Shown here piece after piece: positions 22,135-43,502 of a DNA stretch of 44,042 bases. Origin of the DNA: a virus. The position numbers and the translations under genes are program-made. The stretch lies in IMG/VR virus record IMGVR_UViG_3300012205_000001, positions 1-44,042 of that record, one strand, 5' to 3'. The notes below the pieces were generated by a model, which was given only the letters and a program-made list of their open reading frames with translations, was not told where the DNA came from and ran no database searches. Positions within the stretch are counted from its first letter, which is position 1. Each line of letters starts with the position of its first letter.

Positions 22135-23082
22135 CTATGTGGCGGAGTAGCCGGTGATCTTCCAAAAATGCTTCGGGTTATCCGCGCCGATCCCGAACGC
22201 CATGGTGATAAGCCATTTGTCCGAGTCGTCGGTCTTGCCCAACAGGTCGACCTTCATCTGCCGGCGCCATGACATGAACAGATCGCCCGTCTGGACGCCG
22301 AGAAAGATGCTGTTATCCAGGTCGCGGATCGGCGTCAGTGGCCGCCCGGCATAGGTGATGCCGGAGCTGTTGCCCTGCAGGTCGATGCTGTTGTTGCCCG
22401 ACATGATGCGGATCGAATTGTTTGCCGAGCCGGCCAGGCCGATGGCACCGCGCGCCTTCTGGATCTGCTTCGGCGACACCCATACCTGGTCGTAGCTGGA
22501 CGCATAGTCCGCGTCGCGGCTGAACCGGTCGGCGGCGTCGATGTCGGCCAGGGTCACCGTGGTACCGCTGCCCGTGGTCTCATATGCCTGAAACCAGGTA
22601 TAGGTGTTGCGGTCCAGGCCAGCGATGGTGCCGGCGCTGTCGCAGATGCCCTGGATGCCCACCGGCGACACCAGGCCCGTGCCAAGCGCGTCCGTGGATG
22701 CCAGGTCGATGACGTCGGCCATGCCCTTTTCGAACTCCTGGGCGAACTGGTCGAAGAACGCGGCCTGCGGATTGCCGTTGTTCAAAGTGTCGCGGGCGTG
22801 GCCCGTGATCTGAACGACGACCTTGTAGTAGGTGAATGGCCACTGCGCCGTGACGTATGACTGCGAGCCGGGAGCGCCCGCCGCGTCACCCTCGACGTAT
22901 CGGGTGACCGACGTGTTCTTCCCGTACTGCATCTTCCGGTTGAGCGTTGTGCCGCCGGTGTCGGGGCGCAGATTGAAGCGCCCGAGTACCTCACTATTGC
23001 GGAACGTGGTGTCGACCAGCCCGGCGATCGCCTGGGTTTTGGTCGCCGCGTCGATGGAACTAGCTGCCGTTACGCCTGCCAT
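22135..23082 (-). CDS. Putative major capsid protein (315 aa)
   Basis: Position immediately downstream of the scaffolding-like gene, with size typical of HK97-fold capsid proteins; by gene order only. Confidence 0.45.
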   Translation of the reverse strand: MAGVTAASSIDAATKTQAIAGLVDTTFRNSEVLGRFNLRPDTGGTTLNRKMQYGKNTSVTRYVEGDAAGAPGSQSYVTAQWPFTYYKVVVQITGHARDTLNNGNPQAAFFDQFAQEFEKGMADVIDLASTDALGTGLVSPVGIQGICDSAGTIAGLDRNTYTWFQAYETTGSGTTVTLADIDAADRFSRDADYASSYDQVWVSPKQIQKARGAIGLAGSANNSIRIMSGNNSIDLQGNSSGITYAGRPLTPIRDLDNSIFLGVQTGDLFMSWRRQMKVDLLGKTDDSDKWLITMAFGIGADNPKHFWKITGYSAT

Positions 23083-25692: not shown

Positions 25693-27039
25693 TTACGCAA
25701 TCGCACGCAGCAGTGGCCCACGCTCGACCGTGCTGGCGACGTAGCGCGCGACCGTGACGGCGTGGTCCTTTTGATGCGGGGCTGGCTGTTCAAGCTGCAA
25801 CCCGGCGGGCGTCAGCTGCCAGACGTAGTTCTCGAATTCGCTCGTCAGATTTGGGCACCGCGGGCCCAGGATCCGGATCCGATCCTGATGGAGCAACGAC
25901 GACAGCGTTCGGATTCCGGACAGCACAGAGCGTGCGTGCTCGTCGAACGTCCCGGCACCATAGTTGCGATGTTTCGAAACCCTGATCCCCGCGCGCTGAA
26001 AGCGGACCAGATTGTCCGGTTCAGCCGGATCGGCCACCCATTCATTGAAGCGCCACTTTTGCTGCAGCTTGATCGCCTCCGGCGCCCAGAAGTCTTCGAC
26101 CAACAGCGATGCAGAATAGACCTCGTCAAGAAACCACAGTACTGGTCGCTCGCCGAACGTCAGGCCGGCGACCAACAGAGCGCCCGGGTTGCTGAAGCCC
26201 CAGTCGCAGCCGCCCAAGATGCGCTGGAATTGGATCCCGTCTGGCAGTTTCGAAACCGAAACCCGCGCCCGCGCGAAACCCCGGTAGACCTGGCCGATGA
26301 ATGCCTGCCGGCTCGCCTCCCATTCGCGCTCGAAGTACTCGGGCGCCAGCGTCGCGCGCGCATGCGCGACCTCGGCCTGCAGGCCAGGCGCGCGGGTGTT
26401 GGCCGCCGTAGGCCACCAGTGGGATGAATATCCCGGCACATGGTCATTGGCCGGCCGCTCGAAGGCCTCCCACGTCCAATCGCGACCCAGCGGCGTCGTG
26501 GTGGCAATACACCAGCCCTGTTTATCGGCGAGCGCCGGCCGTAGATAGAGCGGCCAGGCATCGGCGCGGACGCGGGCGGCCTCCTCAATCCACATGCCAT
26601 CGAGACCACTGCCGACCTTTTTTTGTGGATTCCGAACCGTCTTGAATTCGATCAGGATATCGCCCTTGAGCCACCAGCGGCCCTTCGCGTTGTCGACATG
26701 GTCGATCAGCTCCTCTGGCAGGAACTGCAGCAAATAGCGCTTCGGCTCATCGAGCAGCTCATATGTATCGGCGCAGATCCAATAGTGCAGCCGCGCGCGC
26801 CGCTGCCACCAAAGGACGGTTCCGCGCCGCGCGGCGCCGGGCAGATAGAGTAGCTGCTTCCGGCGCGCGAAGTCATCCCAGACGCGCTGAATGAACTTCT
26901 TGGCGGCCGTATAAGTCTTGGCTCCGCGGCGGCCGGCCAGACCCAAGACAAAGCGCGCCGGGTCGATGAAAAACCGGTAGGCCGGCAGGTGGAGCGGGCT
27001 GTCAGGGCCGAATAGCTGGATCGTGAGCGCAAGCGACAT
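25693..27039 (-). CDS. Terminase large subunit
   Basis: N-terminal Walker A P-loop LAGRRGAKTY; C-terminal acidic nuclease-type region (GGCDWGFSNP, ADPAEPD); about 450 aa, upstream of the portal. Confidence 0.8.
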   Translation of the reverse strand: MSLALTIQLFGPDSPLHLPAYRFFIDPARFVLGLAGRRGAKTYTAAKKFIQRVWDDFARRKQLLYLPGAARRGTVLWWQRRARLHYWICADTYELLDEPKRYLLQFLPEELIDHVDNAKGRWWLKGDILIEFKTVRNPQKKVGSGLDGMWIEEAARVRADAWPLYLRPALADKQGWCIATTTPLGRDWTWEAFERPANDHVPGYSSHWWPTAANTRAPGLQAEVAHARATLAPEYFEREWEASRQAFIGQVYRGFARARVSVSKLPDGIQFQRILGGCDWGFSNPGALLVAGLTFGERPVLWFLDEVYSASLLVEDFWAPEAIKLQQKWRFNEWVADPAEPDNLVRFQRAGIRVSKHRNYGAGTFDEHARSVLSGIRTLSSLLHQDRIRILGPRCPNLTSEFENYVWQLTPAGLQLEQPAPHQKDHAVTVARYVASTVERGPLLRAIA

Positions 27040-28073: not shown

Positions 28074-28282
28074 AGGCGGCCCATCAGCATGCGCGCCGGC
28101 GGCCGGATGCAGATGTCGCTCACGGCCCGATGCGCGACTCCCATGCTGCGCTCGACCTTTTCGTCGCTCGTCATGGCGCCATGCTGGACCACAACCTTGA
28201 CGTGTCCGTGGTGCTGGCAGTCAGGGCAGGCCCAGGGCAAGAACCATTCGATCGGGCCCTTTTGCGGCATGGTGCCTACCAC
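27971..28282 (-). CDS. Hypothetical small protein with Cys/His cluster (103 aa)
   Basis: PWACPDCQHHGHVKVV suggests a metal-binding motif; stop/start is close to the upstream glycosyltransferase. Confidence 0.35.
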   Translation of the reverse strand: MVGTMPQKGPIEWFLPWACPDCQHHGHVKVVVQHGAMTSDEKVERSMGVAHRAVSDICIRPPARMLMGRLWRFELGRPIWMLKKGETQETFHPEKWPPWGKTN

Positions 28283-29148
28283 GGGATTTCACCAAAGCGA
28301 CTCAGCATCTGTCGGTGCTCCTCCTCGCTCTGCTGGCGCGCGCCAAGGTCGCCCTGAATCATCGCCATCCCGCCGGCGGGATTGGTGGTCCGGATAACGA
28401 GTGGCTCACGGTCGCCAGAATTGACGATAACTGAATGCCGAGAGATATTCTGCAGCCAGCCATGGCGGACGGTCAATGGTTGGCCATAAAAGTAAACCAC
28501 GGGCGCGTCCTCGTCTACTAGGTGCGCGCGCTTCACGCCGTGCTTGTTCGCGCGCCCCAGCCATTCGGTGTCGACGTGGAATCGAAATCCCTCGTCCATC
28601 GGGCCGATCTCGTCCCATACGGCGCGATGCATGAGCCAGCCCGACGGCGTGGCGAAGTCATTGACGCGCTGGAAGTTGCCGGCCACGTCGACCTCGCGCT
28701 GATTACTGGTCACCATGTCGACGCGGGAGAGCCACGGGATTTGTGCAGCCAGCTTTTCGGGGCACCAGATGTCATCGTCTTCCAGGAACGCCAGCACGTC
28801 GCCGGTGGATGCGCGCACAGCGGCATTGACGGCGGCAGCTTGGCCGCCCGCGCCAGCGAATACCTGCGTAACGCCCTTGAAGCGCTCAGGTAGCAGCCCT
28901 GTGTTCAGCTGATCGCGAAAGGCTTGCATACCCATCGTCGCTGCCGCGATCGGATTGGCTGCGTTGACCTTTATCGGCGAATCCATTCCCACGACGAATT
29001 CAATTTCATGTTCGCCCGCGGCCGACTGCCGGTGCACCGACATCAGCGCGCGGTCGAGATAGAGATTCCCAGTCTCGCTCATAGGATTGACCTGCAAGCG
29101 ACTAGGTGTAATGACGCTGATTTTCACCGGCACACATCCGGAATCCAA
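28276..29148 (-). CDS. Family-2-type glycosyltransferase (GT-A fold)
   Basis: N-terminal ISVITPS, then GQAAAVNAAVRASTGDVLAFLEDDDIW (nucleotide-sugar binding region with DxD-type EDDD), typical of GT2 enzymes. Confidence 0.65.
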   Translation of the reverse strand: MDSGCVPVKISVITPSRLQVNPMSETGNLYLDRALMSVHRQSAAGEHEIEFVVGMDSPIKVNAANPIAAATMGMQAFRDQLNTGLLPERFKGVTQVFAGAGGQAAAVNAAVRASTGDVLAFLEDDDIWCPEKLAAQIPWLSRVDMVTSNQREVDVAGNFQRVNDFATPSGWLMHRAVWDEIGPMDEGFRFHVDTEWLGRANKHGVKRAHLVDEDAPVVYFYGQPLTVRHGWLQNISRHSVIVNSGDREPLVIRTTNPAGGMAMIQGDLGARQQSEEEHRQMLSRFGEIPW

Positions 29149-29422
29149 TGGTCATCGTCAACGCTGGGCTGCCATGGTTCGGACGTCTCAAGACGCGGCG
29201 GGGCGCACTGAAGACAGGTACAGCCAACAGAATGCGGGGATGTCATCAGCGCGTTTTCTTTGACGGCCAGGCGCAGGCGGCCAAGTGCATGATCGATTGT
29301 GTCTGCGGGTCGCTTCTCAGCAACGGACGTTGACATATGCGGCAGCGGGCCGTCTACCGTCTGTTTGCCATGCCACCATCCATCTTGATGAGGCCATTTA
29401 CATCCAACAAATCCACACATGA

Positions 29423-30868
29423 TCATCGCTGCCGCTCCAGTTCTTCGACGTACGGTCGATAGATAATCTCTCCCTGCCGCTTGGTCACTTGGTATTCGGG
29501 CCGCGTGATGACCGTGTGGCCATCGGCCAATTCGCGGTATCCCGAATAGTGAAAAGCCACGAGCGAGCGGTTGCCGAAGTACGGAACGCCGCCCCGGACA
29601 TCAAGCGCGCGGCCATGGATCGCCCACGGGCCAAGGTTTGCTCCTGGAGCCATAACCACATGCGCGCCATGCTTTTCCGGCCACGCGTCAAGGTATTTTT
29701 GGTCGCCATAACGCAACTGCCTTTCGGGAATTGGGACCTGCTCCACACGGTCATAACACCACTCTCGGCATTGCGCCGCCCACTCTTCGACAATCTCACG
29801 ATTCGCGATATAGACGAGGCCCACATTGTATTTTCCAAATACCTCATGCGTCTCAACTGTCGGCCCCGGTAACCCGTGCGATGCGCTGGCGAAGTTGTGC
29901 GGGAACACTGCCGCAGGTGCGGCGCCAATTTCTGCAAAGACTGGCTCTGGCGATGAATGGAACATTATGTCAGCATCGACGTAACAGACGGGACGGCCGG
30001 TCGACTTCATGACCTCTGCGATCCACCACGGACCGAGCGTCCACATCGTCTCGACCCTGGTGCGTTCCGGTCCAGGCAGGATGCCGATCGTGCCCGGCAG
30101 CTGCGTCGGGCATCCAACTGATTCTGCCCAATCACGCACGCCTTCGTCCCACGACAGAATATGCAACTCGAACGGCTGGCAGTGTCGCAGCATTGAGGCG
30201 TGGAGCGCCTTGAGGCGAGTGAGATAATTGCTATCGGCATATGTGGCGTAGACGCGCGGCCGCGCACAGACATAGGTCGTCGATCCACCGTCAGCTCGGA
30301 AAAAATCGCGACCTTGGAATCCAGTCTCCGCCATCGCGGCCATGAGGTCCATATGATTGACGTCCCAGGCCCGGAACGTCTGCCCGTAGCCATGCGTCTC
30401 GGTGCGTTTTGTCGCTATCGCCAGCGGCACACGATGAAGAATCACCCAGCGTCGCGACCGCGCGCATAGATCGGCAAGATGTATCTTCCAGTCGTCGGCA
30501 TGCATGAGGGCGCAGCCGTCGATCACGACGTCAAACGAACTCGGCAATCCGCATAAATCAAATGGCGGACGATCATGGCTGGCGAAGCAAACGAATTCGC
30601 TCTCCGGGTATCGCTCGAGCGCAACCTTGATCGCCGCTGGGCTGATGTCACAGCCGCCATAGCTTCGATATGCTATCCCCTGCCGATCCAGGACCTCACG
30701 GTTGTACCCGCTCGCGCAGCCGACCTCCCATAGCTCGCCGGGGCATTGCGTGGAGCGCACCGCATCGGCCAGGGCGCGAAACTGGATCGGCAGCGGGTCT
30801 TGCTGCAGCTGCTGATCTACCAGTTCACGCTGGGCGGCGGCGATCTCAGGCAGCATCCAGGGGTTCAC
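29423..30868 (-). CDS. Two-domain protein: N-terminal class I SAM-dependent methyltransferase-like, C-terminal nucleotide-sugar transferase-like
   Basis: LWEVGCASGYN (glycine-rich motif I-like) and DVVIDGCALMH in the N-terminal half; CYVDADIMF (DxD-like) in the C-terminal half. Confidence 0.5.
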   Translation of the reverse strand: MNPWMLPEIAAAQRELVDQQLQQDPLPIQFRALADAVRSTQCPGELWEVGCASGYNREVLDRQGIAYRSYGGCDISPAAIKVALERYPESEFVCFASHDRPPFDLCGLPSSFDVVIDGCALMHADDWKIHLADLCARSRRWVILHRVPLAIATKRTETHGYGQTFRAWDVNHMDLMAAMAETGFQGRDFFRADGGSTTYVCARPRVYATYADSNYLTRLKALHASMLRHCQPFELHILSWDEGVRDWAESVGCPTQLPGTIGILPGPERTRVETMWTLGPWWIAEVMKSTGRPVCYVDADIMFHSSPEPVFAEIGAAPAAVFPHNFASASHGLPGPTVETHEVFGKYNVGLVYIANREIVEEWAAQCREWCYDRVEQVPIPERQLRYGDQKYLDAWPEKHGAHVVMAPGANLGPWAIHGRALDVRGGVPYFGNRSLVAFHYSGYRELADGHTVITRPEYQVTKRQGEIIYRPYVEELERQR

Positions 30869-31872
30869 AAACTCCTCGCCAGCTCGACGAGCCGCGGAAT
30901 GCGCGATTCATAGGTGTGCGCGAGCAGAACATCTTGGGCCGCCTTCTCATCATCACCATAAGCGGCCTTCATGATCCAATCGCGCGCGTGCGCGGCGCTG
31001 ACAAACTCATTCGGCCCCCACCAGAATTGATCGATGAAAGCTTCGCCATCGCTCACCGGCTCAGCTCCCATCCCGGCCGCTTCATAGAGTCGCATGGCAT
31101 TCGCCGCGCCCTTCGTCCATTCGGCATGGACGTTAAAGACGGTCCTTGCTCGCGCCAGCGTTTTGAAATATTCGCGCCCAAATACCGGCGGCATCACGGT
31201 GACGATATCTTTCAGCTCCTCCAGCAACTGCGTCCGGCGTACGTGGTTAGGCCCGACGGTCCCGACAAAGATGCAGGCTAAGTCACGCTGGACGCCCATG
31301 CCGCAGGCCCGCGCACGGGTATCGAACGCGAGTGGCATATATTCACCCCGACAGCCCTTCGCATGCGCTTCGTCGATCATCCAGGGAATCGATGAGATGA
31401 CCAGGTCATAGGCGGGCGATCCATCGCGCTTGCGGACATCCCATGGCATCGGATTGCAGATGGCGGCAACCTGGGCGATCCGCTTGCCCTGCCCCTTTAT
31501 CGGCATCCCATAATTGTCGAGCACGAAGGCGACGCAGTCAGGCCCATCGATCTCAAGCGCAAACGCGCCGCCCGATACATTCACTGAGGTCGCATCCTCG
31601 CCGAACTCCCGCAGATAGTGCGAATAGCTATCCAGGTGTGAGCAGAAGAACGCCTCGTGGCAATAGAGCGAATCGGCAACTAGCCATCTCATCGCGTCCT
31701 CACGAATGTCCACGCATCGGAATATGCTTCGGGCATCGCCTCGTCTCGAATGCCGAAAAACATCCGCTGCGAGTCGGCACTCGCAAAGCCGATGCATTGC
31801 CTCGCAGCGCCGTTGATTATGACGGCGGCATTTAGATGCCGACCATCGTGGTCGAGTTCGCCGGTGATCCAA
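30865..31872 (-). CDS. Glycosyltransferase-like protein (GT-B/CgeB-like C-terminal region); likely starts at internal Met near 31692
   Basis: ACIFVGTVGPNHVRRTQLLEELKDI and NAMRLYEAAGMGA resemble the C-terminal domain of group-1-type glycosyltransferases. N-terminal 60 residues are Arg/Cys-rich and overlap the upstream gene. Confidence 0.4.
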   Translation of the reverse strand: MDHRRTRPRWSASKCRRHNQRRCEAMHRLCECRLAADVFRHSRRGDARSIFRCVDIREDAMRWLVADSLYCHEAFFCSHLDSYSHYLREFGEDATSVNVSGGAFALEIDGPDCVAFVLDNYGMPIKGQGKRIAQVAAICNPMPWDVRKRDGSPAYDLVISSIPWMIDEAHAKGCRGEYMPLAFDTRARACGMGVQRDLACIFVGTVGPNHVRRTQLLEELKDIVTVMPPVFGREYFKTLARARTVFNVHAEWTKGAANAMRLYEAAGMGAEPVSDGEAFIDQFWWGPNEFVSAAHARDWIMKAAYGDDEKAAQDVLLAHTYESRIPRLVELARSL

Positions 31873-32952: not shown

Positions 32953-33306
32953 TCACAGCCCAGCCCCCATCGCGACCAACTCCACGCGGCCGACGACCGC
33001 GGTGAGTAACCAGAGTCGCCCCATCCAGTTCCCGACTATCTCGCTCGCCGGCGCCGTCGTGAACCATTCCCGTTTCGCCTCCATCAGCTTGGCCAGCCGC
33101 CGCAGGCCGGTCAGCACCGTGGTATGATGGAGACCGCCGAGCGCTTGCCCAATCTCTGGCAGCGACAGACCGATAACCCTCAGCCTGAACATCGCTTCCC
33201 ACCGCACCAACACGCGGCGCCGGCAACGATTTGGCGCCAGCATCGCGCTGACCGACAGCCCATGGGAGGCGGCCACTGCCCGGACGATGGCGCGCGTGTC
33301 AGTCAT
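32953..33306 (-). CDS. DnaA C-terminal (domain IV)-like helix-turn-helix protein
   Basis: LSLPEIGQALGGLHHTTVLTGLRRL matches the conserved DnaA domain IV DNA-binding signature (S.P.IG..FG.RDHTTV). Confidence 0.5.
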   Translation of the reverse strand: MTDTRAIVRAVAASHGLSVSAMLAPNRCRRRVLVRWEAMFRLRVIGLSLPEIGQALGGLHHTTVLTGLRRLAKLMEAKREWFTTAPASEIVGNWMGRLWLLTAVVGRVELVAMGAGL

Positions 33307-34267: not shown

Positions 34268-35290
34268 CTAGCAGAAGAGCCCACGCTGCGCGGTCCGCGC
34301 GCGCGCCAGCTGCGCGTACTCGGGCGAAAGCTCGATGAGGATCCACTGCCGGCCGAGCGCCTCGGAGACCTGGCCGACGGTACCGCTGCCGCCGAACGGA
34401 TCGAGCACGATGCCGCCGGCGGGGCAGCCGGCGAGAATGCAGGTCTCGACCAGCTTGCGCGGAAAAGTCGCGAAGTGGGCGCCGCCGTAGGGCTCGGTTG
34501 CGATCGTCCAGACGGATCGCTTATTGCGCTCGTCGACCAGACCAGCGATGGCCCCCGAGAAGGAGGCGTTCTGCTTGACGCGGAAGCCGGCGCCGCGCCC
34601 GAACCGCGTCGACGGCTTGAGGCCCTGATCGTCTCGCCCTTCGTCCTTGGGGCCGGCCTTGGGGTTGACGCCGTCGCCGCGCGGATGAGCTCTGCCCGTG
34701 ACCGGCTCCTTGATCGCCGCAGCGTCGTAATAGTACCGCTCGCTCTTCGACAACAGGAACACGAACTCGTGCGCCTTCGTCGGACGATCGGTCACCGCCT
34801 CGGGCATCTGGTTTGGCTTCGACCAGATGATGTCGCAGCGCAGGTACCAGCCATCGGCCTGCAGCGCGAAGGCGACGCGCCAGGGAATGCCGACCATGTC
34901 CTTCGGCTTGAGGCCGTGGATCGGTATGCGGTTCGGCTGGGTCATCGGGCCCATGGCCGCCATCGCCGTGTGCTTGCCGGCGTGCGATCCGTCGCGCAGG
35001 GCCCGCGTCTTCTTGCGCAGGATCGCCGCGCCGGTTGCGTAGCAGTCGCCGAGGTTCAACCAGAGCGTACCGTCTGGGCGCAGCGCGCGCCGCACCTCGC
35101 GGAACACCGCCACCAGCTCGGCCATATACTCCTCGGGCGTCGCCTCGAGTCCGATCTGGTCGGCCACGCCGTAGTCGCGCAGGCCCCAGTACGGCGGGCT
35201 CGTTACCACGCAGTGGATCGAGTCGTCTGGGATCTCGCGCAGCAGAGCACGGCAGTCGCCGACGTGGATCTCGCGGGTGGCCAGCGTCAC
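34268..35290 (-). CDS. DNA methyltransferase (N6-adenine or N4-cytosine, beta-class amino-methyltransferase)
   Basis: Catalytic motif TSPPYW near the N-terminus and SAM-binding DPFGGSGT near the C-terminus, the order typical of beta-class enzymes. Confidence 0.85.
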   Translation of the reverse strand: MTLATREIHVGDCRALLREIPDDSIHCVVTSPPYWGLRDYGVADQIGLEATPEEYMAELVAVFREVRRALRPDGTLWLNLGDCYATGAAILRKKTRALRDGSHAGKHTAMAAMGPMTQPNRIPIHGLKPKDMVGIPWRVAFALQADGWYLRCDIIWSKPNQMPEAVTDRPTKAHEFVFLLSKSERYYYDAAAIKEPVTGRAHPRGDGVNPKAGPKDEGRDDQGLKPSTRFGRGAGFRVKQNASFSGAIAGLVDERNKRSVWTIATEPYGGAHFATFPRKLVETCILAGCPAGGIVLDPFGGSGTVGQVSEALGRQWILIELSPEYAQLARARTAQRGLFC

Positions 35291-35434: not shown

Positions 35435-36331
35435 TCAAGCCCGCATCTCCAGAAGTTCTTTCAGGATCGCCGCGATCTTTGGCCAGTATTTTTCATCCGA
35501 CGCGGCCATAGCGGCCCGATCGGCCCGAGCGGCCCGAGCGGCCCGAGCGGCCAGAGCGGCCCGATCGGCCAGAGCGGCCAGATCGGCCAGAGCGGCCCGA
35601 GCGGCCCGAGCGGCCCGATCGGCCCGAGCGGCCAGAGCGGCCAGATCGGCCAGAGCGGCCCGATCGGCCAGAGCGGCCCGAGCGGCCAGAGCGGCCCGAG
35701 CGGCCCGAGCGGCCCGAGCGGCCCGATCGGCCCGAGCGGCCAGAGCGGCCAGATCGGCCAGAGCGGCCCGATCGGCCAGAGCGGCCCGAGCGGCCCGAGC
35801 GGCCCGAGCGGCCAGATCGGCCAGAGCGGCCCGAGCGGCCAGAGCGGCCAGAGCGGCCAGAGCGGCCAGAGCGGCCCGAGCGGCCCGAGCGGCCAGAGGA
35901 GGATGCTTTCGAAGCTCTCCTGCCAACCGCGACAGTTCTCGCGTGTGTTCACTGTCGCCGTCGCAAAGCGCAACCGTCGCATCGATCGCATCGGGTAGGA
36001 TCTCGCGCAGGCCCCAGTCAACGAGACGGACCGCGCGCTTCTCCTCGATCTCATCCGTCGACCGAGAGAACAGCAGCGCTGGCCCGAACTCTGGCGCGAG
36101 ATGCTTTCTCCAAGCCGCGCTCGCGTCCTGAATGCCGACAGTGAACCCATGTAGGACCTGCGAGGCCGTCTCTGGACACGAATACAACCTCGGGTCGAGG
36201 TCGACCCATGCGCGGAATTCCTGCCATGCGCAACGGTCACCAGGCTTACCCGTGCCGCAACCCGCGCGCAGATTCAGCGAGTCAAGATACTCGGGAGTCA
36301 CGTAAGCTGGTAGCTTCTGGATCTCGGTCAT
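35435..36331 (-). CDS. Hypothetical protein with a tripeptide repeat tract A-(A/D)-(R/L) of about 130 aa
   Basis: N-terminal non-repetitive domain (MTEIQKLPAYVTPEYLDSLNLRAGCGTGKPGDRCAWQEF), then AARAALAALAALAAL...ADRAAMAAS encoded by the 9-bp repeat array, then a short C-terminal tail. Confidence 0.5.
   Translation of the reverse strand: MTEIQKLPAYVTPEYLDSLNLRAGCGTGKPGDRCAWQEFRAWVDLDPRLYSCPETASQVLHGFTVGIQDASAAWRKHLAPEFGPALLFSRSTDEIEEKRAVRLVDWGLREILPDAIDATVALCDGDSEHTRELSRLAGELRKHPPLAARAARAALAALAALAALAARAALADLAARAARAARAALADRAALADLAALAARADRAARAARAARAALAARAALADRAALADLAALAARADRAARAARAALADLAALADRAALAARAARAARADRAAMAASDEKYWPKIAAILKELLEMRA
35500..35897. repeat. 9-bp tandem repeat array (about 44 units; variants cggcccgag, cggcccgat, cggccagag, cggccagat)
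   Basis: Read directly from 35500-35897; in-frame within the gene 35435..36331. Confidence 0.85.
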
Positions 36332-37402: not shown

Positions 37403-37618
37403 TCAGTTCACCATCTCTTCGCCGCCACTTTGAATCAGCGCCCGAATCCGCGCAATCAGCAACGATGACGTCTGCGCGGTTAGCAATAGCTTCTGCCTCG
37501 GCGTCTTGCCCGCCAGTAGCGTCGAATATTCGCGCTCGGTTTCCATTACGAGTTGGTGCGCTTGCTCGCGGATGGCCGGCGTGATGACGGCGCAGTCGAT
37601 GCGGATACGGGTTTTCAT
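37403..37618 (-). CDS. Hypothetical small protein (about 71 aa from internal MKTRIRIDCAV)
   Basis: Track ORF 37403..37678; internal Met at 37616-37618 overlaps the stop of the upstream ORF. Confidence 0.35.
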   Translation of the reverse strand: MKTRIRIDCAVITPAIREQAHQLVMETEREYSTLLAGKTPRQKLLLTAQTSSLLIARIRALIQSGGEEMVN

Positions 37619-38211
37619 CGCCGCCACCCGGTCTCGGCATCGGGCAGCAGATCGTACTCGTCGACGGTCGGCCGCCACGGCTCGCGCGCCTGCGTGACGG
37701 CGACGACGGATGGGCCGGCCTCATCTGACATGCGCAATATTCTCCTCTTTTCCGCTTCGGTTAGAAGACGGCTGCGTGTAGTAACGGCCGCTTCCCCTCC
37801 ACGGGCGGCCTCCGTGTCTGCTGAGGCGTTCGCCGCCGGCGGATGAGGCGAGACGAAGTCATGATGTTCTAAGCGATGCGTCGATGCAAGGCGCTGAGTA
37901 TGAATGGTGCAATTGATCATCCTGCACGACCCATGCACCGAATCTGTGCGCTTCCATCCACATGCGCATTCATCCTCGGGTGACACCGGCGCTGGCGCGA
38001 GGACAGGCTCTATTAGCTCCGTCTCGATCAACTCGGCGTATGTGTGCTCATGCTGATTCTCGATGCGCGTTGCACCGTCATGGCAGCAGTTTCCAAAGAC
38101 GAGCGCGGTCTTCTTGTCAATTGATTGGATCTGGAATGAATGAGCGAAGACGATGTTTCGCCCATCAGGGCGAAAGCGCCGAATCTGCCCGACTTCGAAG
38201 GTGATTGCCAT
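37615..38211 (-). CDS. Hypothetical protein (198 aa)
   Basis: Track ORF starting next to the stop of the Sak4-like gene; Cys/His-containing. Confidence 0.35.
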   Translation of the reverse strand: MAITFEVGQIRRFRPDGRNIVFAHSFQIQSIDKKTALVFGNCCHDGATRIENQHEHTYAELIETELIEPVLAPAPVSPEDECACGWKRTDSVHGSCRMINCTIHTQRLASTHRLEHHDFVSPHPPAANASADTEAARGGEAAVTTRSRLLTEAEKRRILRMSDEAGPSVVAVTQAREPWRPTVDEYDLLPDAETGWRR

Positions 38212-38213
38212 GA

Positions 38214-39212
38214 TCAGTCCTCTCCTGGTTGTCGTTGGTCAACGCCGTCCGCGATGGCGAGAAGCGCGGTCACCACGTTGGCGGCCTGCTGTTCGGTCAG
38301 TTCGGCGCGCGTCTTGACGCCATACTTCGTCCACAACCAATCCTTCGCCAGCGCCGGCCGCCAGCCGAGGCGTTCGATTTCGCGGCCAATCTCTTCGATC
38401 TGTTCGCGGCGCGCCGTCGGCGTATCCGGCAGTGATGCTGACTTTCCGTTGCTGACCGCCGCCCCACCGGCCGCCCAGCGCGCAAGCTGCTCGCCGGTCT
38501 CTTCGCTGAGTGGCGCCGTCTCTTTAAACATGCCGCGGAATTGCCCCGGCAGCTTGATGATTGCCTTCTCGCCCATCTCCTCACTGTGCCATGTCGGTAC
38601 GCCATCGCTGCCAGGATAGAGCAGGCAATTCGCCGTCATCTCATAGACAAATTCCTCGCCCGCAATCGGCATCCAGCCGCGCACCTTCGGCTTCGCGCCG
38701 CTGAGGTCCATCTTCTCTTTCGCGCGAAAACAGAACACGAAATTGATCGGCATCTGAAGAATTGTGTTCAGCAGGCGCCTCCGCTCGGCCTTCGGCTTCT
38801 GCCATCCGCTCATTTGCGCTTTCTCGGGCGGCACGCGCCAGAGCGCCGCGAGTCGCTGCGTCTCGGCGTCGTGCATTTCCAGCACGCCGCCGGGGCCTTC
38901 ATGCTCATGGCTCGCGCTGTCGATGACGATGGTCTGGGCCCCCTTGGCGGCGCAATGTTCAATCGCCGCCAAGTAATCCAGGGGCCCGAAGGGGGCGGCG
39001 AAGGGCAGATGACGGAATTTGAACTTGTCGGCATAGTGCAGCGCGCGACGGGCCTCCGTATCGATGACGTAGATGTCGCCACCGGCAACGCGTTGGATGC
39101 CGGTCGCCAGGCGCAGAGCGGAGAAAGTTTTCCCGGCACTTGAACTTCCAGTCAGGCCGATCAACAGCGGCGTCCGTTCTCTTTTGGCCTGGAAGTCTTC
39201 AAACGCTCGCAT
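38214..39212 (-). CDS. RecA-fold ATPase, Sak4-like (AAA_24-type) recombination protein
   Basis: Walker A LIGLTGSSSAGKTFSAL and hydrophobic strand plus acidic Walker B TIVIDSASHEHEG; size and neighbourhood (nuclease, HNH) typical of phage Sak4-like proteins. Confidence 0.6.
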   Translation of the reverse strand: MRAFEDFQAKRERTPLLIGLTGSSSAGKTFSALRLATGIQRVAGGDIYVIDTEARRALHYADKFKFRHLPFAAPFGPLDYLAAIEHCAAKGAQTIVIDSASHEHEGPGGVLEMHDAETQRLAALWRVPPEKAQMSGWQKPKAERRRLLNTILQMPINFVFCFRAKEKMDLSGAKPKVRGWMPIAGEEFVYEMTANCLLYPGSDGVPTWHSEEMGEKAIIKLPGQFRGMFKETAPLSEETGEQLARWAAGGAAVSNGKSASLPDTPTARREQIEEIGREIERLGWRPALAKDWLWTKYGVKTRAELTEQQAANVVTALLAIADGVDQRQPGED

Positions 39213-39681
39213 GTGCTCTCCTCTTTGTCCACGGCTTCCATGTCAATTCCATACCAGGAATTCCAAGTCCATGACGGCGCATGTGCTCTCCCTGGGTAAT
39301 CACTTCCAGGTTTGCCGGGGAATTGTTCGACTTGTTTCCATCGCGATGATGAACGATCTCGCCAGCGAGAAGCTTCCGCCCGAGCATCTCTTCGGCAACT
39401 ACCCTGTGTTCGTGTCGGCCCATGCGTTTTACATATCCGTCGCCCCGTCCACGTCCGCGTTGCAAGTCGCCACGTTGGGCGGCGCTCACCCGCGCCCGTC
39501 TGCACATCTCTGCGCTTCCGATAGAATGATGCCAAATGCACGACTTCGAACAGAACTTAGCCACTGGTTTGCGAGTAACAAACCCCCGAGCGCACTGGAT
39601 GCATTCACGCTCCTGGTAAGTGCGACCGTCGTCGCCCTTGAATATCCGGATTACGCGCGCCAGCCTAGAAGGGATGCTCAT
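39199..39681 (-). CDS. HNH endonuclease (likely starts at internal MSIPSRL)
   Basis: EIVHHRDGNKSNNSPANLEVITQGEHMRRHG carries the His-Asn-His catalytic arrangement. Track ORF 39199..39891 has an Arg-rich, implausible N-terminus. Confidence 0.6.
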   Translation of the reverse strand: MSIPSRLARVIRIFKGDDGRTYQERECIQCARGFVTRKPVAKFCSKSCIWHHSIGSAEMCRRARVSAAQRGDLQRGRGRGDGYVKRMGRHEHRVVAEEMLGRKLLAGEIVHHRDGNKSNNSPANLEVITQGEHMRRHGLGIPGMELTWKPWTKRRAHASV

Positions 39682-40489
39682 CGGAGACCTCCATCGCTGC
39701 GATCTGCTGGTCCATCTCCTCGGCGAGCTGCCATGGCTTGGCCTCCAGCGGCGCGGTGTTCTCGTAGCCGGGCCACTGCCGGGACCGCACGCAGGCCGCC
39801 CAACTGGCCTTTGCCCGCTTCCATTTGCGCGCGCCCAACTCACGCAGACTGCCGCCCAGGGACCGGATGTTGACCGCGTGAGGCGGCTCACATTCGACGA
39901 AAATGAACCGCATCTTGACCAGCCCGGCGAGCTCGGGATTGTTCGTTTCGACGCCCTCGACGTAGGCCGCGTGCTGGATATCGGCGCCGTAGGCCACGAT
40001 TGATCGCGTGATCGATTCGTCGCTGGCGTCGTCGCAGGTCTTCAGGTCGTAGATGATCCCATCCGGCATGATCAGGTGGTCCAGCACACCCTTGCATTCG
40101 CAGCCGTCCGATTCCCACACCTGCGTGACCTGACTCTGCCCGCGGAATTCGAGCCCGCGCGCTACGAGTCGATCGCGAATGGCCTGGACGGTCGCAGTCG
40201 CCGCCTCGAATTTATCGACCAGCACCGCAATCCGCCCAGCCGCCTCGGCGGCATCGCGCTGGTCCTTCGCCGCGTTGGTGCGCCAGTCTTTCGCATTGAT
40301 GACTTCGAGCTTGGGACCGCTGCCCAGAAGCATGGCATCGATCAATCGCCCGCGGCGCGTGGCGTCTGTCTGCTCGCCCTCCTCCGCGCCGCCGAGACGA
40401 TGTCGCTGCCACGCATGCAGCGGCGAGCGCCGCAGCAGAATGCTGGCAATCGACGGCGAGAGACGCATTGGTTCCGTTGTTTGATCCAT
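39665..40489 (-). CDS. Putative PD-(D/E)xK-type nuclease (likely starts at internal MDQTTEP)
   Basis: GIIYDLKTCDDAS resembles the D...(D/E)xK core; adjacent to the Sak4-like ATPase, as in phage recombination modules. Track ORF 39665..40798. Confidence 0.4.
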   Translation of the reverse strand: MDQTTEPMRLSPSIASILLRRSPLHAWQRHRLGGAEEGEQTDATRRGRLIDAMLLGSGPKLEVINAKDWRTNAAKDQRDAAEAAGRIAVLVDKFEAATATVQAIRDRLVARGLEFRGQSQVTQVWESDGCECKGVLDHLIMPDGIIYDLKTCDDASDESITRSIVAYGADIQHAAYVEGVETNNPELAGLVKMRFIFVECEPPHAVNIRSLGGSLRELGARKWKRAKASWAACVRSRQWPGYENTAPLEAKPWQLAEEMDQQIAAMEVSDEHPF

Positions 40490-40894: not shown

Positions 40895-41110
40895 TCACGA
40901 TTGCACCCCCATCGCCGCCGGTTGCCACTCGCCCAGGATGATCATGCCCTCCCAAAATAGCGCACATCGCGCGTGGACCCTGGTCCCGGCGACGATCAGC
41001 AGCGCGCCATCGATGTCGGTCAGGCATGCTTCGCAGGTGTCGGGTATGGCGAGTGAGCAAACGCCGCAGCTGGTACCGCAGCAGGACGGGGCGCAGTCAG
41101 CGTAGGTCAT
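40895..41110 (-). CDS. Hypothetical Cys-rich small protein (71 aa)
   Basis: CAPSCCGTSCGVCSLAIPDTCEAC; overlaps 40716..41060 in another frame, so only one is likely real. Confidence 0.3.
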   Translation of the reverse strand: MTYADCAPSCCGTSCGVCSLAIPDTCEACLTDIDGALLIVAGTRVHARCALFWEGMIILGEWQPAAMGVQS

Positions 41111-42273
41111 GTGTCACTCTCCGCCGCGCATGCCTTGATGTCTTCCAACGCCCGTTCATTGCTCGCGAAAAAATGCGGCACGCGGCCGGTGGATGCGCGA
41201 TAGATCATCGTCGCCGCACGCTGCGAATCATACTTCGCCTCCAACTTGGCCCCCGCTTCGCCCGCATGGACTATCGCCCAACCGCCGATACAGTGTGTCA
41301 TTGTGCAAGAGTGCCAGGTAGACATTTCGAGCCGCCCGCCGCCGCCAGTGACAGATTCCAGAATCTTGGCGTCCAGTCTATCAACCACAGGCACGTCCGG
41401 GTTGCGCTCGCGGTATTTCAGCATCCGCGCGCGACGGGCCGCCTTGACTTCTTCGGGCGTCGTCGGGCGGACGTATGGCTTCGCTGGATCTGAGACCGGA
41501 ATGGTTATGCCTATGGCGCCGTCGAGGCTGGCGCCGACGAGGCTGGCGCCGTCGAGGTTGGCGCCGACGAGGCTGGCGCCGTCGAGGTTGGCGCGGCCGA
41601 GGCTGGCGCCGACGAGGCTGGCGCCGACGAGGCTGGCGCCGTCGAGGTTGGCGCCGTCGAGGCTGGCGCCGACGAGGCTGGCGCCGACGAGGCTGGCGCC
41701 GACGAGGCTGGCGCCGTCGAGGTTGGCGCCGACGAGGCTGGCGCCGACGAGGCTGGCGCCGACGAGGCTGGCGCGGCCGAGGCTGGCGCCGTCGAGGTTG
41801 GCGCCGTCGAGGCTGGCGCCGACGAGGCTGGCGCCGACGAGGTTGGCGCCGTCGAGGCTGGCGCCGTCGAGGTTGGCGCCGTCGAGGTTGGCGCCGTCGA
41901 GGTTGGCGCCGTCGAGGCTGGCGCCGACGAGGTTGGCGCCGACGAGGCTGGCGCCGTCGAGGCTGGCGCCGTCGAGGTTGGCGCCGTCGAGGCTGGCGCC
42001 GTCGAGGTTGGCGCGGCCGAGGTTGGCGCGGCCGAGGCTGGCGCCGTCGAGGTTGGCGCCGTCGAGGTTGGCGCCGTCGAGGTTGGCGCCGTCGAGGTTG
42101 GCGCCGTCGAGGTTGGCGCCGTCGAGGTTGGCGCCGTCGAGGTTGGCGCGTTTTCCGCCAACCTCGTCTCTGCGCCACATGTCGTGTAGCCGTCGGACTT
42201 CGGCCAGGTCGGCTGTCGATATCGTGCGTAGTTCCATGGTCACTCCTTGATCAAGTGTGAAATCAGCCGCCAA
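41107..42273 (-). CDS. Pentapeptide-repeat protein (about 43 consecutive A-(N/S)-L-(D/V/G)-(G/R) repeats) with C-terminal globular domain
   Basis: ANLDGANLDGANLDG...ASLVGASLDG tract; pentapeptide-repeat family signature A(D/N)LXX. C-terminal ~130 aa are non-repetitive and Cys/His-containing. Confidence 0.7.
   Translation of the reverse strand: MAADFTLDQGVTMELRTISTADLAEVRRLHDMWRRDEVGGKRANLDGANLDGANLDGANLDGANLDGANLDGANLDGASLGRANLGRANLDGASLDGANLDGASLDGASLVGANLVGASLDGANLDGANLDGANLDGASLDGANLVGASLVGASLDGANLDGASLGRASLVGASLVGASLVGANLDGASLVGASLVGASLVGASLDGANLDGASLVGASLVGASLGRANLDGASLVGANLDGASLVGASLDGAIGITIPVSDPAKPYVRPTTPEEVKAARRARMLKYRERNPDVPVVDRLDAKILESVTGGGGRLEMSTWHSCTMTHCIGGWAIVHAGEAGAKLEAKYDSQRAATMIYRASTGRVPHFFASNERALEDIKACAAESDT
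41510..42150. repeat. 15-bp tandem repeat array (units ggcgccgacgaggct / ggcgccgtcgaggtt and variants) encoding the pentapeptide repeats
   Basis: Read directly; more than 40 consecutive 15-nt units. Confidence 0.85.
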
Positions 42274-43133: not shown

Positions 43134-43502
43134 TTGGGCGCGGATCAGCCGCGCGCCGAATGGCCTCCCAGGCCTGCAGCAAAGGCAGGGGAAGCTGGTC
43201 CGCTGATGGCGTATCAAACCGACGCCACCCAAGCCGCCATCGTCGCCGCGCTCCGCGCTGCAGGATGTAGCGTCTGCCACATTGCGAGCGCCACCGGTCA
43301 GGCCGGCATTCCGGATCTGCTGGTCGGTCGCCGCAGCGTGAACTACCTGCTGGAGGTCAAGGTCCGCGTCGGCAAGCGCAATCCACGGTCAGCCAGTCTG
43401 TCGCCGGGCCAGGTCGAATGGCACCGGAATTGGCGGGGCGCTCCGGTATGGATCGTCACGACGCCAGAAGAGGCGCTCCGGGCGGTCGGGGTGCGGATAT
43501 GA
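43134..43502 (+). CDS. VRR-NUC domain nuclease-like protein (probably starts at MAYQTDATQ near 43206)
   Basis: GIPDLLVGRRSVNYLLEVKVRVGKRNPRSASLSPGQVEW matches the VRR-NUC pattern (G.PDL ... ExK ... Q..W). Confidence 0.5.
   Translation: MGADQPRAEWPPRPAAKAGEAGPLMAYQTDATQAAIVAALRAAGCSVCHIASATGQAGIPDLLVGRRSVNYLLEVKVRVGKRNPRSASLSPGQVEWHRNWRGAPVWIVTTPEEALRAVGVRI

What the first reader, a model, noticed from the sequence alone, without database searches (positions are those of the whole stretch)
38214..40489. Recombination module: Sak4-like ATPase, HNH endonuclease and PD-(D/E)xK-like nuclease, with a VRR-NUC protein on the opposite arm
A RecA-fold ATPase (Walker A GLTGSSSAGKT), an HNH nuclease and a putative D...(D/E)xK nuclease are adjacent in the early region, and a VRR-NUC-like gene lies at 43134..43502 on the plus strand. 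The HNH here is far from the terminase, unlike the common HNH-terminase pairing in cos phages. Its role may therefore be in recombination or as a selfish endonuclease.
Basis: partly seen in the sequence, partly recalled or inferred. Interest (0 to 1): 0.45.

Follow-up and report, generated by a model that had tools for sequence, protein, structure and literature searches.

The report
Homing endonuclease splitting a phage recombination module
A phage carries an ordinary two-gene DNA recombination unit (a RecE-type exonuclease and a RecA-like ATPase), and a small selfish HNH nuclease gene has inserted exactly between the two genes, a spot that related phages leave empty or fill with other mobile genes.

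Summary
Three overlapping minus-strand genes lie at 38214-40489:
- a RecE-family PD-(D/E)xK exonuclease (DUF3799; family profile matches RecE structure 3h4r, E=6e-25);
- an HNH_3 endonuclease with an N-terminal four-cysteine motif;
- an AAA_24, RecA-fold ATPase.

A 98-aa VRR-NUC/Hjc-like nuclease lies at 43209-43502 (+).

Comparison with 168 non-redundant related loci decides the HNH question. Of these, 147 have the exonuclease upstream of the ATPase, and in 94 the two genes directly abut. The closest relative (77% and 75% amino-acid identity) has no HNH. Aligned to it, the window shows a clean insertion of about 455 nt.

Orthologous HNH genes occur at the same junction in at least six other lineages, and the nearest relatives of each lack them. 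Their identities (51-65%) do not follow those of the flanking genes (ATPase 27-67%). Other HNH_3 architectures occupy the same junction elsewhere.

The HNH is therefore best read as a free-standing, site-specific homing endonuclease, not a conserved part of the module.

The ATPase is Sak4-like only loosely. It belongs to AAA_24, but it is distant from characterised Sak4, is 332 aa with an extra C-terminal domain, and has no SSB gene beside it.

The VRR-NUC-like gene is not linked to the module in relatives. This is a new member of a known kind, of modest interest.

The parts
39665..40489 (-). RecE-family (exonuclease VIII nuclease-domain, DUF3799) PD-(D/E)xK exonuclease, 274 aa. Catalytic motif D137 ... 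D148-L-K150 ... Q172xxxY176. The C-terminus ends ...SDEHPF*.
   Evidence: Pfam DUF3799 8e-17 and PDDEXK_1 4e-6. phrog_412 'exonuclease VIII' 1e-40. Family profile A3 against the PDB hits RecE 3h4r, E=6.2e-25. Conserved D/DxK/Q columns. NCBIfam exodeoxyribonuclease VIII gives a local match at 2.5e-7, far below the full-length cut-off.
39199..39681 (-). Free-standing HNH_3 endonuclease gene, 160 aa. It has an N-terminal CxxC...CxxxC motif (C27, C30, C44, C48) and the HNH core HHRDGNKSNNSPANLEVITQGEH. It overlaps the exonuclease stop by 17 nt and the ATPase start by 14 nt.
   Evidence: Pfam HNH_3 3.1e-13. 13 PHROG 'HNH endonuclease' families. Orthologues of 51-63% identity sit in the same position in other loci.
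39207..39665 (-). Inserted cassette of about 455 nt relative to HNH-free relatives; the boundaries are ambiguous by a few bases. The HNH start codon and Shine-Dalgarno sequence align with those of the ATPase in the closest relative. A new SD (GAGGAG) and ATG for the ATPase lie inside the HNH 3' end.
   Evidence: DNA alignment of the window with L249 and L250 shows a single clean 454-nt block present only in the window, between alignable flanks. Junction sequences of eight empty-site loci.
38214..39212 (-). AAA_24 / RecA-fold P-loop ATPase, 332 aa, the putative ssDNA-annealing recombinase. The core spans residues 1-250 (Walker A G22-T29, Walker B-like VIDS 96-99). A disordered linker (254-262) leads to a C-terminal three-helix domain (269-321).
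   Evidence: Pfam AAA_24 1.8e-9. phrog_1366 7.5e-51. Profile A1 against the PDB has RecA as best hit. AlphaFold pLDDT 92. Foldseek matches RecA, RAD51, RAD51 paralogues and KaiC with probability 1.0. Viral structural matches are annotated 'AAA domain' or 'RecA-like recombinase'.
43209..43502 (+). VRR-NUC/Hjc-like PD-(D/E)xK nuclease, 98 aa, with motif G-I-P-D37 ... E50-V-K52; probably a Holliday-junction resolvase. It is in the same genome but is not a conserved neighbour of the module.
   Evidence: Pfam Hjc 21.2 bits against cut-off 21.1. phrog_93 'endonuclease' 4e-10. Profile A2 hits VRR-NUC structures 4qbn and 4qbo at 1e-3 and 2e-3, then Hjc. Fold search ranks 4qbn and 4qbo first. JGI names many homologues 'Holliday junction resolvase' and 3 of the 120 listed carry PF08774. 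It is absent from the flanks of about 170 related loci.

Best explanation
The region is a two-component phage recombination module with a mobile gene inserted between its two genes.

The first gene encodes a RecE-type 5'-3' exonuclease, expected to resect double-strand ends. The second encodes an AAA_24 RecA-core ATPase, expected to bind the exposed single strand and anneal it to a complementary strand, as shown for Sak4.

The HNH_3 gene between them is a free-standing homing endonuclease. It sits exactly between the exonuclease stop codon and the ATPase start codon. It reuses the translation start that the ATPase has in HNH-free relatives, and it supplies a new ribosome-binding site and ATG for the ATPase from its own 3' end.

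The inferred mechanism is as follows. During co-infection the HNH enzyme cuts an HNH-free relative at or near this junction. Its four-cysteine motif may supply DNA binding, though this was not tested. The break is then repaired from the HNH-carrying genome, possibly by the flanking exonuclease and annealase themselves, and the cassette is copied in.

Shown here: the gene families, the clean insertion, the patchy distribution, and the mismatch between HNH divergence and the divergence of the flanks. Inferred: the enzyme activities, the cleavage site and the homing itself.

The VRR-NUC/Hjc-like gene 2.7 kb upstream on the other strand is most likely the phage's junction resolvase, acting independently of the module.
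For: Families: (see parts).

Synteny. Of 168 non-redundant ATPase loci from IMG/VR, JGI metagenomes and GTDB genomes, 147 have the RecE-like exonuclease upstream. In 94 of these the two genes are within 150 nt, usually overlapping.

Empty site. The closest relative, L249 (exonuclease 77%, ATPase 75% amino-acid identity), has the two genes overlapping by 20 nt with no HNH. The DNA alignment shows one clean 454-nt block present only in the window.

Patchy distribution. HNH orthologues (51-63% identity) lie at the same junction in L206, L073, L074-76, L077-78 and L233, with a more divergent copy in L070. For the five of these lineages tested, and for the window, the six nearest ATPase relatives fell at 41-82% identity; only two of them, at 69-70%, carried the HNH, and for L077 all six were below 50%. 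L206 was not tested because its ATPase is cut off by the contig end.

Incongruence. HNH pairwise identity is flat at 51-65%, while the ATPase ranges over 27-67% and the exonuclease over 22-43%. Spearman correlations are HNH against ATPase -0.60, HNH against exonuclease -0.63, and ATPase against exonuclease +0.75.

Other occupants. HNH_3 is the commonest Pfam family among the junction inserts, with 12 of 104 insert ORFs. The architectures are varied: with AP2, with NUMOD4, with an HTH, and with zf-His_Me_endon. The HNH of Microcystis phage Mwe-JY08 at the same junction is related to the window's only at the HNH motif.

Other contexts. More distant members of the same HNH family lie next to other repair genes: YqaJ with an SbcC-like ATPase, and a polynucleotide kinase-phosphatase (PNKP).

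Literature. AAA_24 is the Pfam family used for Sak4, and homing nucleases of HNH_3/NUMOD type beside annealase modules have been reported (PMC8093625). Phage homing endonuclease genes cluster next to essential genes (PMC10448857).
Against: No cleavage, target-site or homing assay exists for this HNH family, so mobility is inferred from comparative data only.

The HNH ORFs are intact, keep their catalytic residues at about 60% identity, and are translationally coupled to both neighbours. This is also what a domesticated, useful gene would look like.

The flat HNH identity could partly reflect strong constraint on a small domain. The 15 pairwise comparisons come from only six loci and are not independent, so the p-values are nominal.

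For the ATPase, profile comparison with the characterised HK620 Sak4 is weak (hhalign probability 18%; phrog_124 'Sak4-like' E=0.017). The protein exceeds the under-290-aa 'core-only' criterion of Lopes et al. 2010 (PMC2896510). [quoted passage not shown]

Most related sequences are metagenomic contigs of unknown host.
Confidence: 0.72

Rival explanations
1. The HNH is a domesticated third component of the recombination module. It would make programmed nicks or breaks, in phage concatemers or host DNA, that the exonuclease and ATPase then process, for example to start recombination-dependent replication.
For: The ORF is intact with conserved catalytic and cysteine residues across orthologues of 51-65% identity. 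It overlaps both neighbours, so it is co-translated with them. Relatives of this HNH family recur beside other recombination and repair genes: DUF3799, YqaJ, an SbcC-like AAA_23 ATPase and a polynucleotide kinase-phosphatase (PNKP).
Against: It is absent from 94 of 147 loci where the two genes abut, and from the closest relative at 75-77% identity. Only about 8% of junctions hold any HNH_3, and those belong to several unrelated architectures. HNH divergence is uncoupled from the divergence of the flanks.
Confidence: 0.13
2. The AAA_24 protein is not a strand-annealing recombinase. It has another DNA-metabolism role, such as a helicase loader, a replication initiator partner or a motor regulating the exonuclease. 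'Recombination module' would then be only half right.
For: Its best PHROG, phrog_1366, has no assigned function. Its similarity to characterised Sak4 is weak. It has an extra C-terminal three-helix domain, and family members run to 300-500 aa. Some deposited phage genomes annotate homologues as 'putative replicative DNA helicase'. There is no SSB in the window.
Against: It scores higher on AAA_24 (38.2 bits) than HK620 Sak4 itself does (30.0 bits). Its best sequence and structure relatives are RecA, RAD51 and RAD51 paralogues. It is coupled to a RecE-like exonuclease in 147 of 168 loci, the classic exonuclease-plus-annealase arrangement. The closest relative has an SSB gene immediately downstream.
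Confidence: 0.15
3. The HNH works in DNA packaging, as in the HNH-terminase pairing of cos phages, despite its location.
For: HNH proteins assist terminases in many cos phages (general knowledge). It was the only HNH motif a simple regex found in the window.
Against: It lies 12 kb from the terminase gene, in the early region. It belongs to HNH_3, the family typical of homing endonucleases that also carry AP2 or NUMOD domains. Its orthologues always sit at the exonuclease/ATPase junction, not next to terminases. Close relatives lack it.
Confidence: 0.02

Closest known systems
RecE/RecT and lambda Red exo/beta type phage recombination modules, in the variant that pairs a RecE-like (DUF3799) exonuclease with a Sak4-type (AAA_24) RecA-core annealase (Lopes et al. 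2010, PMC2896510; Hutinet et al. 2018, PMC5928155; Steczkiewicz et al. 2021, PMC8093625)
   Same: The two genes are adjacent and co-oriented in the early region. The exonuclease profile matches the RecE nuclease domain (3h4r, 6e-25). The ATPase is in Pfam AAA_24 and has a RecA/RAD51-like fold with Walker A and B motifs. The closest relative carries an SSB gene directly after the ATPase.
   Different: The ATPase belongs to a separate subfamily (phrog_1366) only remotely similar to HK620 Sak4. It has a C-terminal three-helix domain (332 aa against about 226-245 aa for characterised Sak4). The window has no detectable SSB gene. An HNH gene interrupts the pair.
Free-standing HNH homing endonucleases of phages, such as T4 MobE and the other Mob and Seg genes (PMC2790892, PMC2988022), and HNH_3/NUMOD homing nucleases next to annealase modules in lactococcal phages (PMC8093625); also homing endonuclease genes beside essential genes (Barth et al. 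2023, PMC10448857)
   Same: It is a small intergenic nuclease gene between two conserved genes. It is present or absent among close relatives with a clean empty site. The same junction is occupied in divergent backgrounds. Several unrelated endonuclease lineages use the same spot.
   Different: The domain layout, an N-terminal CxxC...CxxxC motif followed by HNH_3, differs from the AP2, NUMOD or IENR types. The cassette takes over the downstream gene's start codon and provides a new one. The target site and cleavage are untested.
Stand-alone bacterial and phage VRR-NUC domain proteins (PDB 4qbn, 4qbo) and archaeal Hjc Holliday-junction resolvases
   Same: The size is the same (about 95 aa), as is the alpha-beta PD-(D/E)xK fold (TM 0.64-0.68) and the G-x-P-D ... 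E-V-K catalytic motif.
   Different: Pfam VRR_NUC does not reach threshold on this sequence, and Hjc does so only marginally. The gene is not linked to the exonuclease/ATPase module in related phages.

Membership tests
Sak4 / AAA_24 annealase | Match to Pfam PF13479 (AAA_24) above the gathering score | tested here: met
   38.2 bits against a cut-off of 27. HK620 Sak4 itself scores 30.0 bits. Nearly all of the 120 listed homologues carry PF13479.
Sak4 / AAA_24 annealase | RecA/Rad51-type ATPase core with Walker A and B motifs | tested here: met
   Walker A GSSSAGKT and VIDS are read directly from the sequence. The family profile has RecA as its best PDB hit. Foldseek matches RecA, RAD51, RAD51 paralogues and KaiC with probability 1.0 but low TM (0.3-0.4).
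Sak4 / AAA_24 annealase | 'Core-only' protein shorter than 290 aa, without an extra C-terminal domain (operational rule of Lopes et al. 2010, PMC2896510) | tested here: not met
   The protein is 332 aa. AlphaFold predicts a separate C-terminal three-helix domain at 269-321. Family members are 300-500 aa. The extra domain did not resemble a RecA or DnaB C-terminal domain in the searches run.
Sak4 / AAA_24 annealase | Detectable homology to an experimentally characterised Sak4 (HK620 HkaL) | tested here: inconclusive
   hhalign probability is 18%, over the Walker B region only. phrog_124 'Sak4-like' gives E=0.017. HK620 Sak4 falls in phrog_2872 and the window protein in phrog_1366.
Sak4 / AAA_24 annealase | Cognate SSB gene next to the recombinase | tested here: not met
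   Neither the L249 SSB nor the HK620 SSB has a homologue in the window, and the downstream 198-aa ORF has no family match. The feature is met in the closest relative L249, which has PF00436 directly downstream.
Sak4 / AAA_24 annealase | ATP-dependent ssDNA binding and annealing; recombineering activity | not testable with these tools
   Requires biochemistry or genetics.
RecE / exonuclease VIII nuclease domain (DUF3799) | Family HMM match and homology to the RecE catalytic domain | tested here: met
   DUF3799 62.2 bits against a cut-off of 26. phrog_412 1e-40. Profile against 3h4r 6.2e-25.
RecE / exonuclease VIII nuclease domain (DUF3799) | PD-(D/E)xK catalytic residues and the QxxxY motif | tested here: met
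   D137 and K150 are invariant, and D148 and Q172 nearly invariant, across 18 family members.
RecE / exonuclease VIII nuclease domain (DUF3799) | Processive 5'-3' dsDNA exonuclease activity | not testable with these tools
   Requires an enzyme assay.
Free-standing HNH homing endonuclease | HNH nuclease domain with catalytic residues intact | tested here: met
   HNH_3 49.6 bits against a cut-off of 24.8. The motif HH-DGN-NN-NL-EH is conserved in all orthologues.
Free-standing HNH homing endonuclease | Presence/absence polymorphism among close relatives, with an intact empty site | tested here: met
   L249 (75-77% identical flanks) and L250 lack it, with a clean 454-nt indel. In 94 of 147 loci the two flanking genes abut.
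Free-standing HNH homing endonuclease | Evolutionary history different from that of the flanking genes (horizontal spread) | tested here: met
   Of the six nearest ATPase relatives listed for each HNH-bearing lineage tested, only two in all carry it. Spearman correlation of HNH against the flanks is -0.6, whereas the flanks correlate with each other at +0.75. Small sample.
Free-standing HNH homing endonuclease | Site-specific cleavage of the endonuclease-free allele, and gene conversion in crosses | not testable with these tools
   Requires in vitro cleavage mapping and co-infection experiments.
VRR-NUC | Match to Pfam PF08774 (VRR_NUC) | tested here: not met
   There is no VRR_NUC hit at E<=0.1. 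Only Hjc matches, at 21.2 bits against a cut-off of 21.1. 3 of the 120 listed homologues carry PF08774.
VRR-NUC | VRR-NUC fold and the D...ExK active site | tested here: met
   Profile A2 hits 4qbn and 4qbo at 1e-3 and 2e-3 with PD...EVK aligned. The AlphaFold model (pLDDT 90) has 4qbn and 4qbo as top matches, TM 0.64-0.68, with Hjc next.

The most novel reading that the evidence does not exclude
The exonuclease/ATPase junction of this large, uncharacterised AAA_24 subfamily (phrog_1366, more than 4,000 members) may be a dedicated 'landing pad'. Several homing endonuclease lineages would compete for it, and it would also collect anti-defence cargo (a Tad3 anti-Thoeris gene sits there in one relative). 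Under this reading the HNH cassettes exploit the flanking exonuclease and annealase as their own repair machinery. HNH-driven breaks would then drive the exchange of recombination-module alleles and neighbouring accessory genes between otherwise unrelated phages.
Probability: 0.2. Interest if true: 0.55.

Novelty: new member of a known kind. Interest (0 to 1): 0.33.

Why it matters
The result gives a clear comparative example of an intron-less homing endonuclease placed between the two genes of a phage recombination module, with matched empty and filled alleles that could go straight into cleavage and co-infection experiments.

It also flags a very large AAA_24 subfamily that is almost always paired with a RecE-like exonuclease. 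This subfamily is annotated inconsistently as 'helicase', 'RecT', 'ABC ATPase' or 'RecA-like', and has never been tested. It could be a source of new recombineering pairs.

None of this changes current concepts. Exonuclease-plus-annealase modules and free-standing HNH homing genes are both well known.

Tried and rejected
- Nucleotide search of the phage collection found no close relative, only an 89-nt match in a Gordonia phage exonuclease.
- The HNH was compared with the HNH genes of Mwe-JY08 and Brucella phage BiPBO1, which lie in or beside the same module. Similarity is limited to the motif, so they are not orthologues.
- I looked for an SSB gene in the window with the L249 SSB, the HK620 SSB and a C-terminal 'IPF' tail search. 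Nothing was found.
- The ATPase C-terminal domain was tested for homology to solved structures, including the idea of a Red-beta C-terminal-like domain. Only designed coiled coils matched, which is not informative. A weak NCBIfam 'slr1353' match was far below its cut-off.
- A single-sequence PDB search with the exonuclease gave only spurious hits. The family profile was needed to reach RecE.
- I tested whether the VRR-NUC-like gene travels with the module. It appears in none of the related loci, so I dropped it as a module component.
- The packaging-HNH idea was rejected on location and family.
- My HNH regex missed several HNH_3 inserts, so the counts rest on Pfam scans.
Full report
**1. What is in the window**

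The window is a phage genome or genome-length contig of about 62% GC. The large terminase subunit (25693-27039), portal (23816-25465) and major head protein (22135-23082) are on the minus strand. The same proteins are on record from a public 44,058-bp contig.

Three overlapping minus-strand ORFs fill the reported interval:
- The exonuclease, 39665-40489, 274 aa, preceded by the Shine-Dalgarno sequence (SD) GGGAG.
- The HNH, 39199-39681, 160 aa, with SD GGAGG. Its ATG lies 17 nt inside the exonuclease gene.
- The ATPase, 38214-39212, 332 aa, with SD GAGGAG. Its ATG lies 14 nt inside the HNH gene.

The plus-strand ORF 43134-43502 most likely starts at the ATG at 43209, giving 98 aa. This is the version held in public collections (P0042).

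**2. Family assignments**

*Exonuclease.* Pfam gives DUF3799 ('PDDEXK-like') at 8e-17 and PDDEXK_1 at 4e-6, both above their cut-offs. PHROGs gives phrog_412 'exonuclease VIII' at 1e-40. A profile of 18 family members hits the RecE nuclease-domain structure 3h4r at E=6.2e-25. The residues D137, D148-x-K150 and Q172 are invariant or nearly so.

*HNH.* Pfam gives HNH_3 at 3e-13, with 13 PHROG 'HNH endonuclease' families. A CxxC...CxxxC motif precedes the HNH core and is conserved in all orthologues.

*ATPase.* Pfam gives AAA_24 at 38.2 bits against a cut-off of 27. This is the family used in the literature for Sak4 (PMC8093625). For comparison, HK620 Sak4 scores 30.0 bits on the same model. The family profile finds RecA as the best solved relative. 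An AlphaFold model (pLDDT 92) matches RecA, RAD51, RAD51 paralogues and KaiC with probability 1.0 but low TM (0.3-0.4). Among viral models it matches proteins called 'AAA domain' or 'RecA-like recombinase'.

Several results limit the 'Sak4' label:
- The best PHROG is phrog_1366, which has no assigned function (7.5e-51). The Sak4-annotated phrog_124 reaches only E=0.017.
- hhalign against HK620 Sak4 gives 18% probability.
- The protein is 332 aa, with a disordered linker (254-262) and a C-terminal three-helix domain (269-321). Lopes et al. assigned Sak4 only to core-only proteins under 290 aa (PMC2896510).
- Family members are 300-500 aa with variable tails.

*VRR-NUC-like protein.* Pfam VRR_NUC does not match. 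Hjc is just above its cut-off, at 21.2 against 21.1 bits. A 43-sequence profile hits the VRR-NUC structures 4qbn and 4qbo at 1e-3 and 2e-3, with the PD...EVK residues aligned. The AlphaFold model (pLDDT 90) has 4qbn and 4qbo as its top PDB matches (TM 0.64-0.68), followed by archaeal Hjc.

**3. Is the HNH part of the module or an insertion?**

I collected related loci with the ATPase as probe, from IMG/VR, JGI metagenomes and GTDB genomes. I collected further loci through the HNH and ATPase homologues.

*Junction occupancy.* There are 168 non-redundant ATPase loci.
- 147 have the RecE-like exonuclease upstream on the same strand.
- In 94 of these the two genes are within 150 nt, typically overlapping or a few bases apart.
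- 45 have a gap of 150-1000 nt.
- 8 have a larger gap.

The ancestral, dominant state is therefore exonuclease directly followed by ATPase.

*Closest relative.* L249 has an exonuclease 77% identical and an ATPase 75% identical at the amino-acid level. Its two genes overlap by 20 nt, it has no HNH, and an SSB gene (PF00436) follows the ATPase.

DNA alignment of the window with L249 and L250 shows alignable flanks and a single 454-nt block present only in the window. The window's HNH ATG and its GGAGG align with the ATPase ATG and SD of L249. In the window, the ATPase uses a new SD and ATG that lie in the last codons of the HNH ORF. Eight further empty-site loci show the same pattern. For example, L079 reads ccgttcTGAggagagaccATG, where the window reads cccttcTAG[insert]gaggagagcacATG.

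*Orthologues elsewhere.* HNH genes 51-63% identical to the window's occupy exactly this junction in L206, L073, L074-76, L077-78 and L233. L070 has a copy with a divergent N-terminus. Each overlaps or abuts both neighbours.

I checked the nearest ATPase relatives of five of these lineages and of the window. L206 could not be tested, because its ATPase is cut off by the contig end. The six nearest relatives were 67-82% identical, except for L077, whose nearest were 41-48%. Only two of them carried the HNH, both at 69-70% identity (L233 as a neighbour of L070 and of L074-76). In the other direction, the loci in that set whose ATPase is closest to the window's (67-71%) all lack it.

*Divergence pattern.* Among six HNH-bearing loci, HNH identity stays at 51-65%. 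ATPase identity ranges over 27-67% and exonuclease identity over 22-43%. The window and L077, for example, share 63% in the HNH but 27% in the ATPase.

Rank correlations:

| Comparison | Spearman rho |
|---|---|
| ATPase against exonuclease | +0.75 |
| HNH against ATPase | -0.60 |
| HNH against exonuclease | -0.63 |

These rest on 15 non-independent pairs. The two flanking genes co-diverge and the HNH does not.

*Other occupants of the junction.* HNH_3 is the most frequent Pfam family among the inserts, matching 12 of 104 insert ORFs. The architectures are several:
- the four-cysteine type found in the window;
- HNH_3 with AP2 (L164);
- HNH_3 alone in L123 and in Microcystis phage Mwe-JY08; the Mwe-JY08 protein is related to the window's only at the HNH motif;
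- NUMOD4 with HNH_3 (L208, L182);
- HNH_3 with an HTH (L186);
- HNH_3 with zf-His_Me_endon (L151).

Other inserts include a Tad3 anti-Thoeris gene (L171), GapR-like proteins, DnaA_C-like HTH proteins and SbcC-like ATPases.

*Other contexts.* More distant members of the window's HNH family lie next to other repair genes.

Taken together, these are the standard comparative signatures of a free-standing, site-specific homing endonuclease gene. There are clean filled and empty alleles, a sporadic distribution, a history that does not match the flanks, and independent endonuclease lineages converging on one junction beside conserved genes. Similar associations have been described: HNH_3/NUMOD nucleases next to annealase modules (PMC8093625), homing endonuclease genes beside essential genes (PMC10448857), and T4 mobE (PMC2790892).

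**4. Mechanism, and what is inferred**

The gene families, the insertion and its distribution are shown here. The following steps are inferred.
- The RecE-like enzyme resects double-strand ends.
- The AAA_24 ATPase anneals single strands, as Sak4 does (PMC5928155).
- The HNH cuts HNH-free alleles near the exonuclease-stop/ATPase-start junction.
- Repair from the HNH-bearing genome copies the cassette in.

The flanking recombination genes are plausible providers of that repair.

The main rival is that the HNH is a useful third component of the module. The intact, conserved, translationally coupled ORFs keep this alive. The absence of the gene from most relatives, including the closest, weakens it.

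A second uncertainty concerns the ATPase. Its role as an annealase rests on family membership, fold and synteny, not on close homology to a tested protein. The window also lacks the SSB gene that accompanies the ATPase in its closest relative.

**5. The VRR-NUC-like gene**

This gene lies in a short, divergently oriented plus-strand cluster 2.7 kb upstream of the exonuclease. It is probably a junction resolvase. A tblastn search with it found no copy beside the module in any of the roughly 170 related loci, most of which carry up to 5 kb of flank on each side. The single hit was in an unrelated locus. It should therefore not be counted as part of the module.

**6. Verdict**

The open question about the HNH is resolved in favour of a selfish homing endonuclease, at about 0.7 confidence. 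This is a new member of known kinds: an exonuclease-plus-annealase module and a free-standing HNH homing gene.

Its main value is as a well-documented pair of empty and filled sites, and as a pointer to a large, untested AAA_24 subfamily.

Noticed in passing
window 39665-39700 (exonuclease C-terminus); also L080, L079, L160, L121: The exonuclease ends in an acidic tail finishing ...SDEHPF*. Several relatives also end in PF*. This resembles the C-terminal tip of bacterial SSB (DDDIPF), which recruits partner proteins, so it might be a docking tail for the ATPase C-terminal domain or for host proteins.
   Followed up: no
window 38214-38420 (ATPase residues about 263-332): The ATPase has a confidently predicted C-terminal three-helix domain after a disordered linker. 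The tails in the family are variable in sequence and length (proteins of 300-500 aa). No known domain was matched.
   Followed up: partly
L249 2135-2560; window 37615-38211: The closest relative has a canonical SSB gene directly after the ATPase. In the same position the window has a 198-aa ORF with no family match, and no SSB was found anywhere in the window.
   Followed up: partly
L171 4432-4995; L215 2665-3150; L221, L149, L132; L004, L092, L096, L140: In relatives the exonuclease/ATPase junction also holds non-nuclease cargo: a Tad3 anti-Thoeris inhibitor, GapR-like DNA-binding proteins, SbcC-like AAA_23 ATPases and small DnaA_C-like HTH proteins. The junction is a general hot spot for accessory genes.
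   Followed up: partly
window 41107-42273 (-): A 388-aa pentapeptide-repeat protein (Pfam Pentapeptide 8e-58) lies just upstream of the module. Proteins of this type can mimic DNA. Its C-terminal region has a weak match in relative L003.
   Followed up: no
window 35435-36331 (-), about 35480-35900: A highly repetitive ORF (AARAALADL-type repeats) reads as collagen-like GPS/GQS repeats on the opposite strand. It has no Pfam or PHROG match, so which strand codes is unclear.
   Followed up: no
window 34268-35290 (-), 32953-33306 (-), 28276-31872 (-): The early-to-middle region also encodes an N6_N4 DNA methyltransferase, a DnaA_C-like HTH protein, two glycosyltransferases and a SAM methyltransferase. 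The ORFs scanned included no recognisable helicase, primase or polymerase.
   Followed up: no
L002 (Brucella phage BiPBO1) 3063-5753; L074 2372-3067 and 5146-5739; L073 1-239: Relatives often carry further HNH genes of other families (PF01844/HNH_5) a few genes downstream of the module. In BiPBO1 an HNH follows the ATPase instead of preceding it.
   Followed up: no
public annotations of ATPase homologues: Homologues of this ATPase are annotated inconsistently in public records, as 'RecT', 'putative replicative DNA helicase', 'DarB-like antirestriction protein', 'ABC-type oligopeptide transport ATPase' and 'EcfA2'. These names look unreliable.
   Followed up: no
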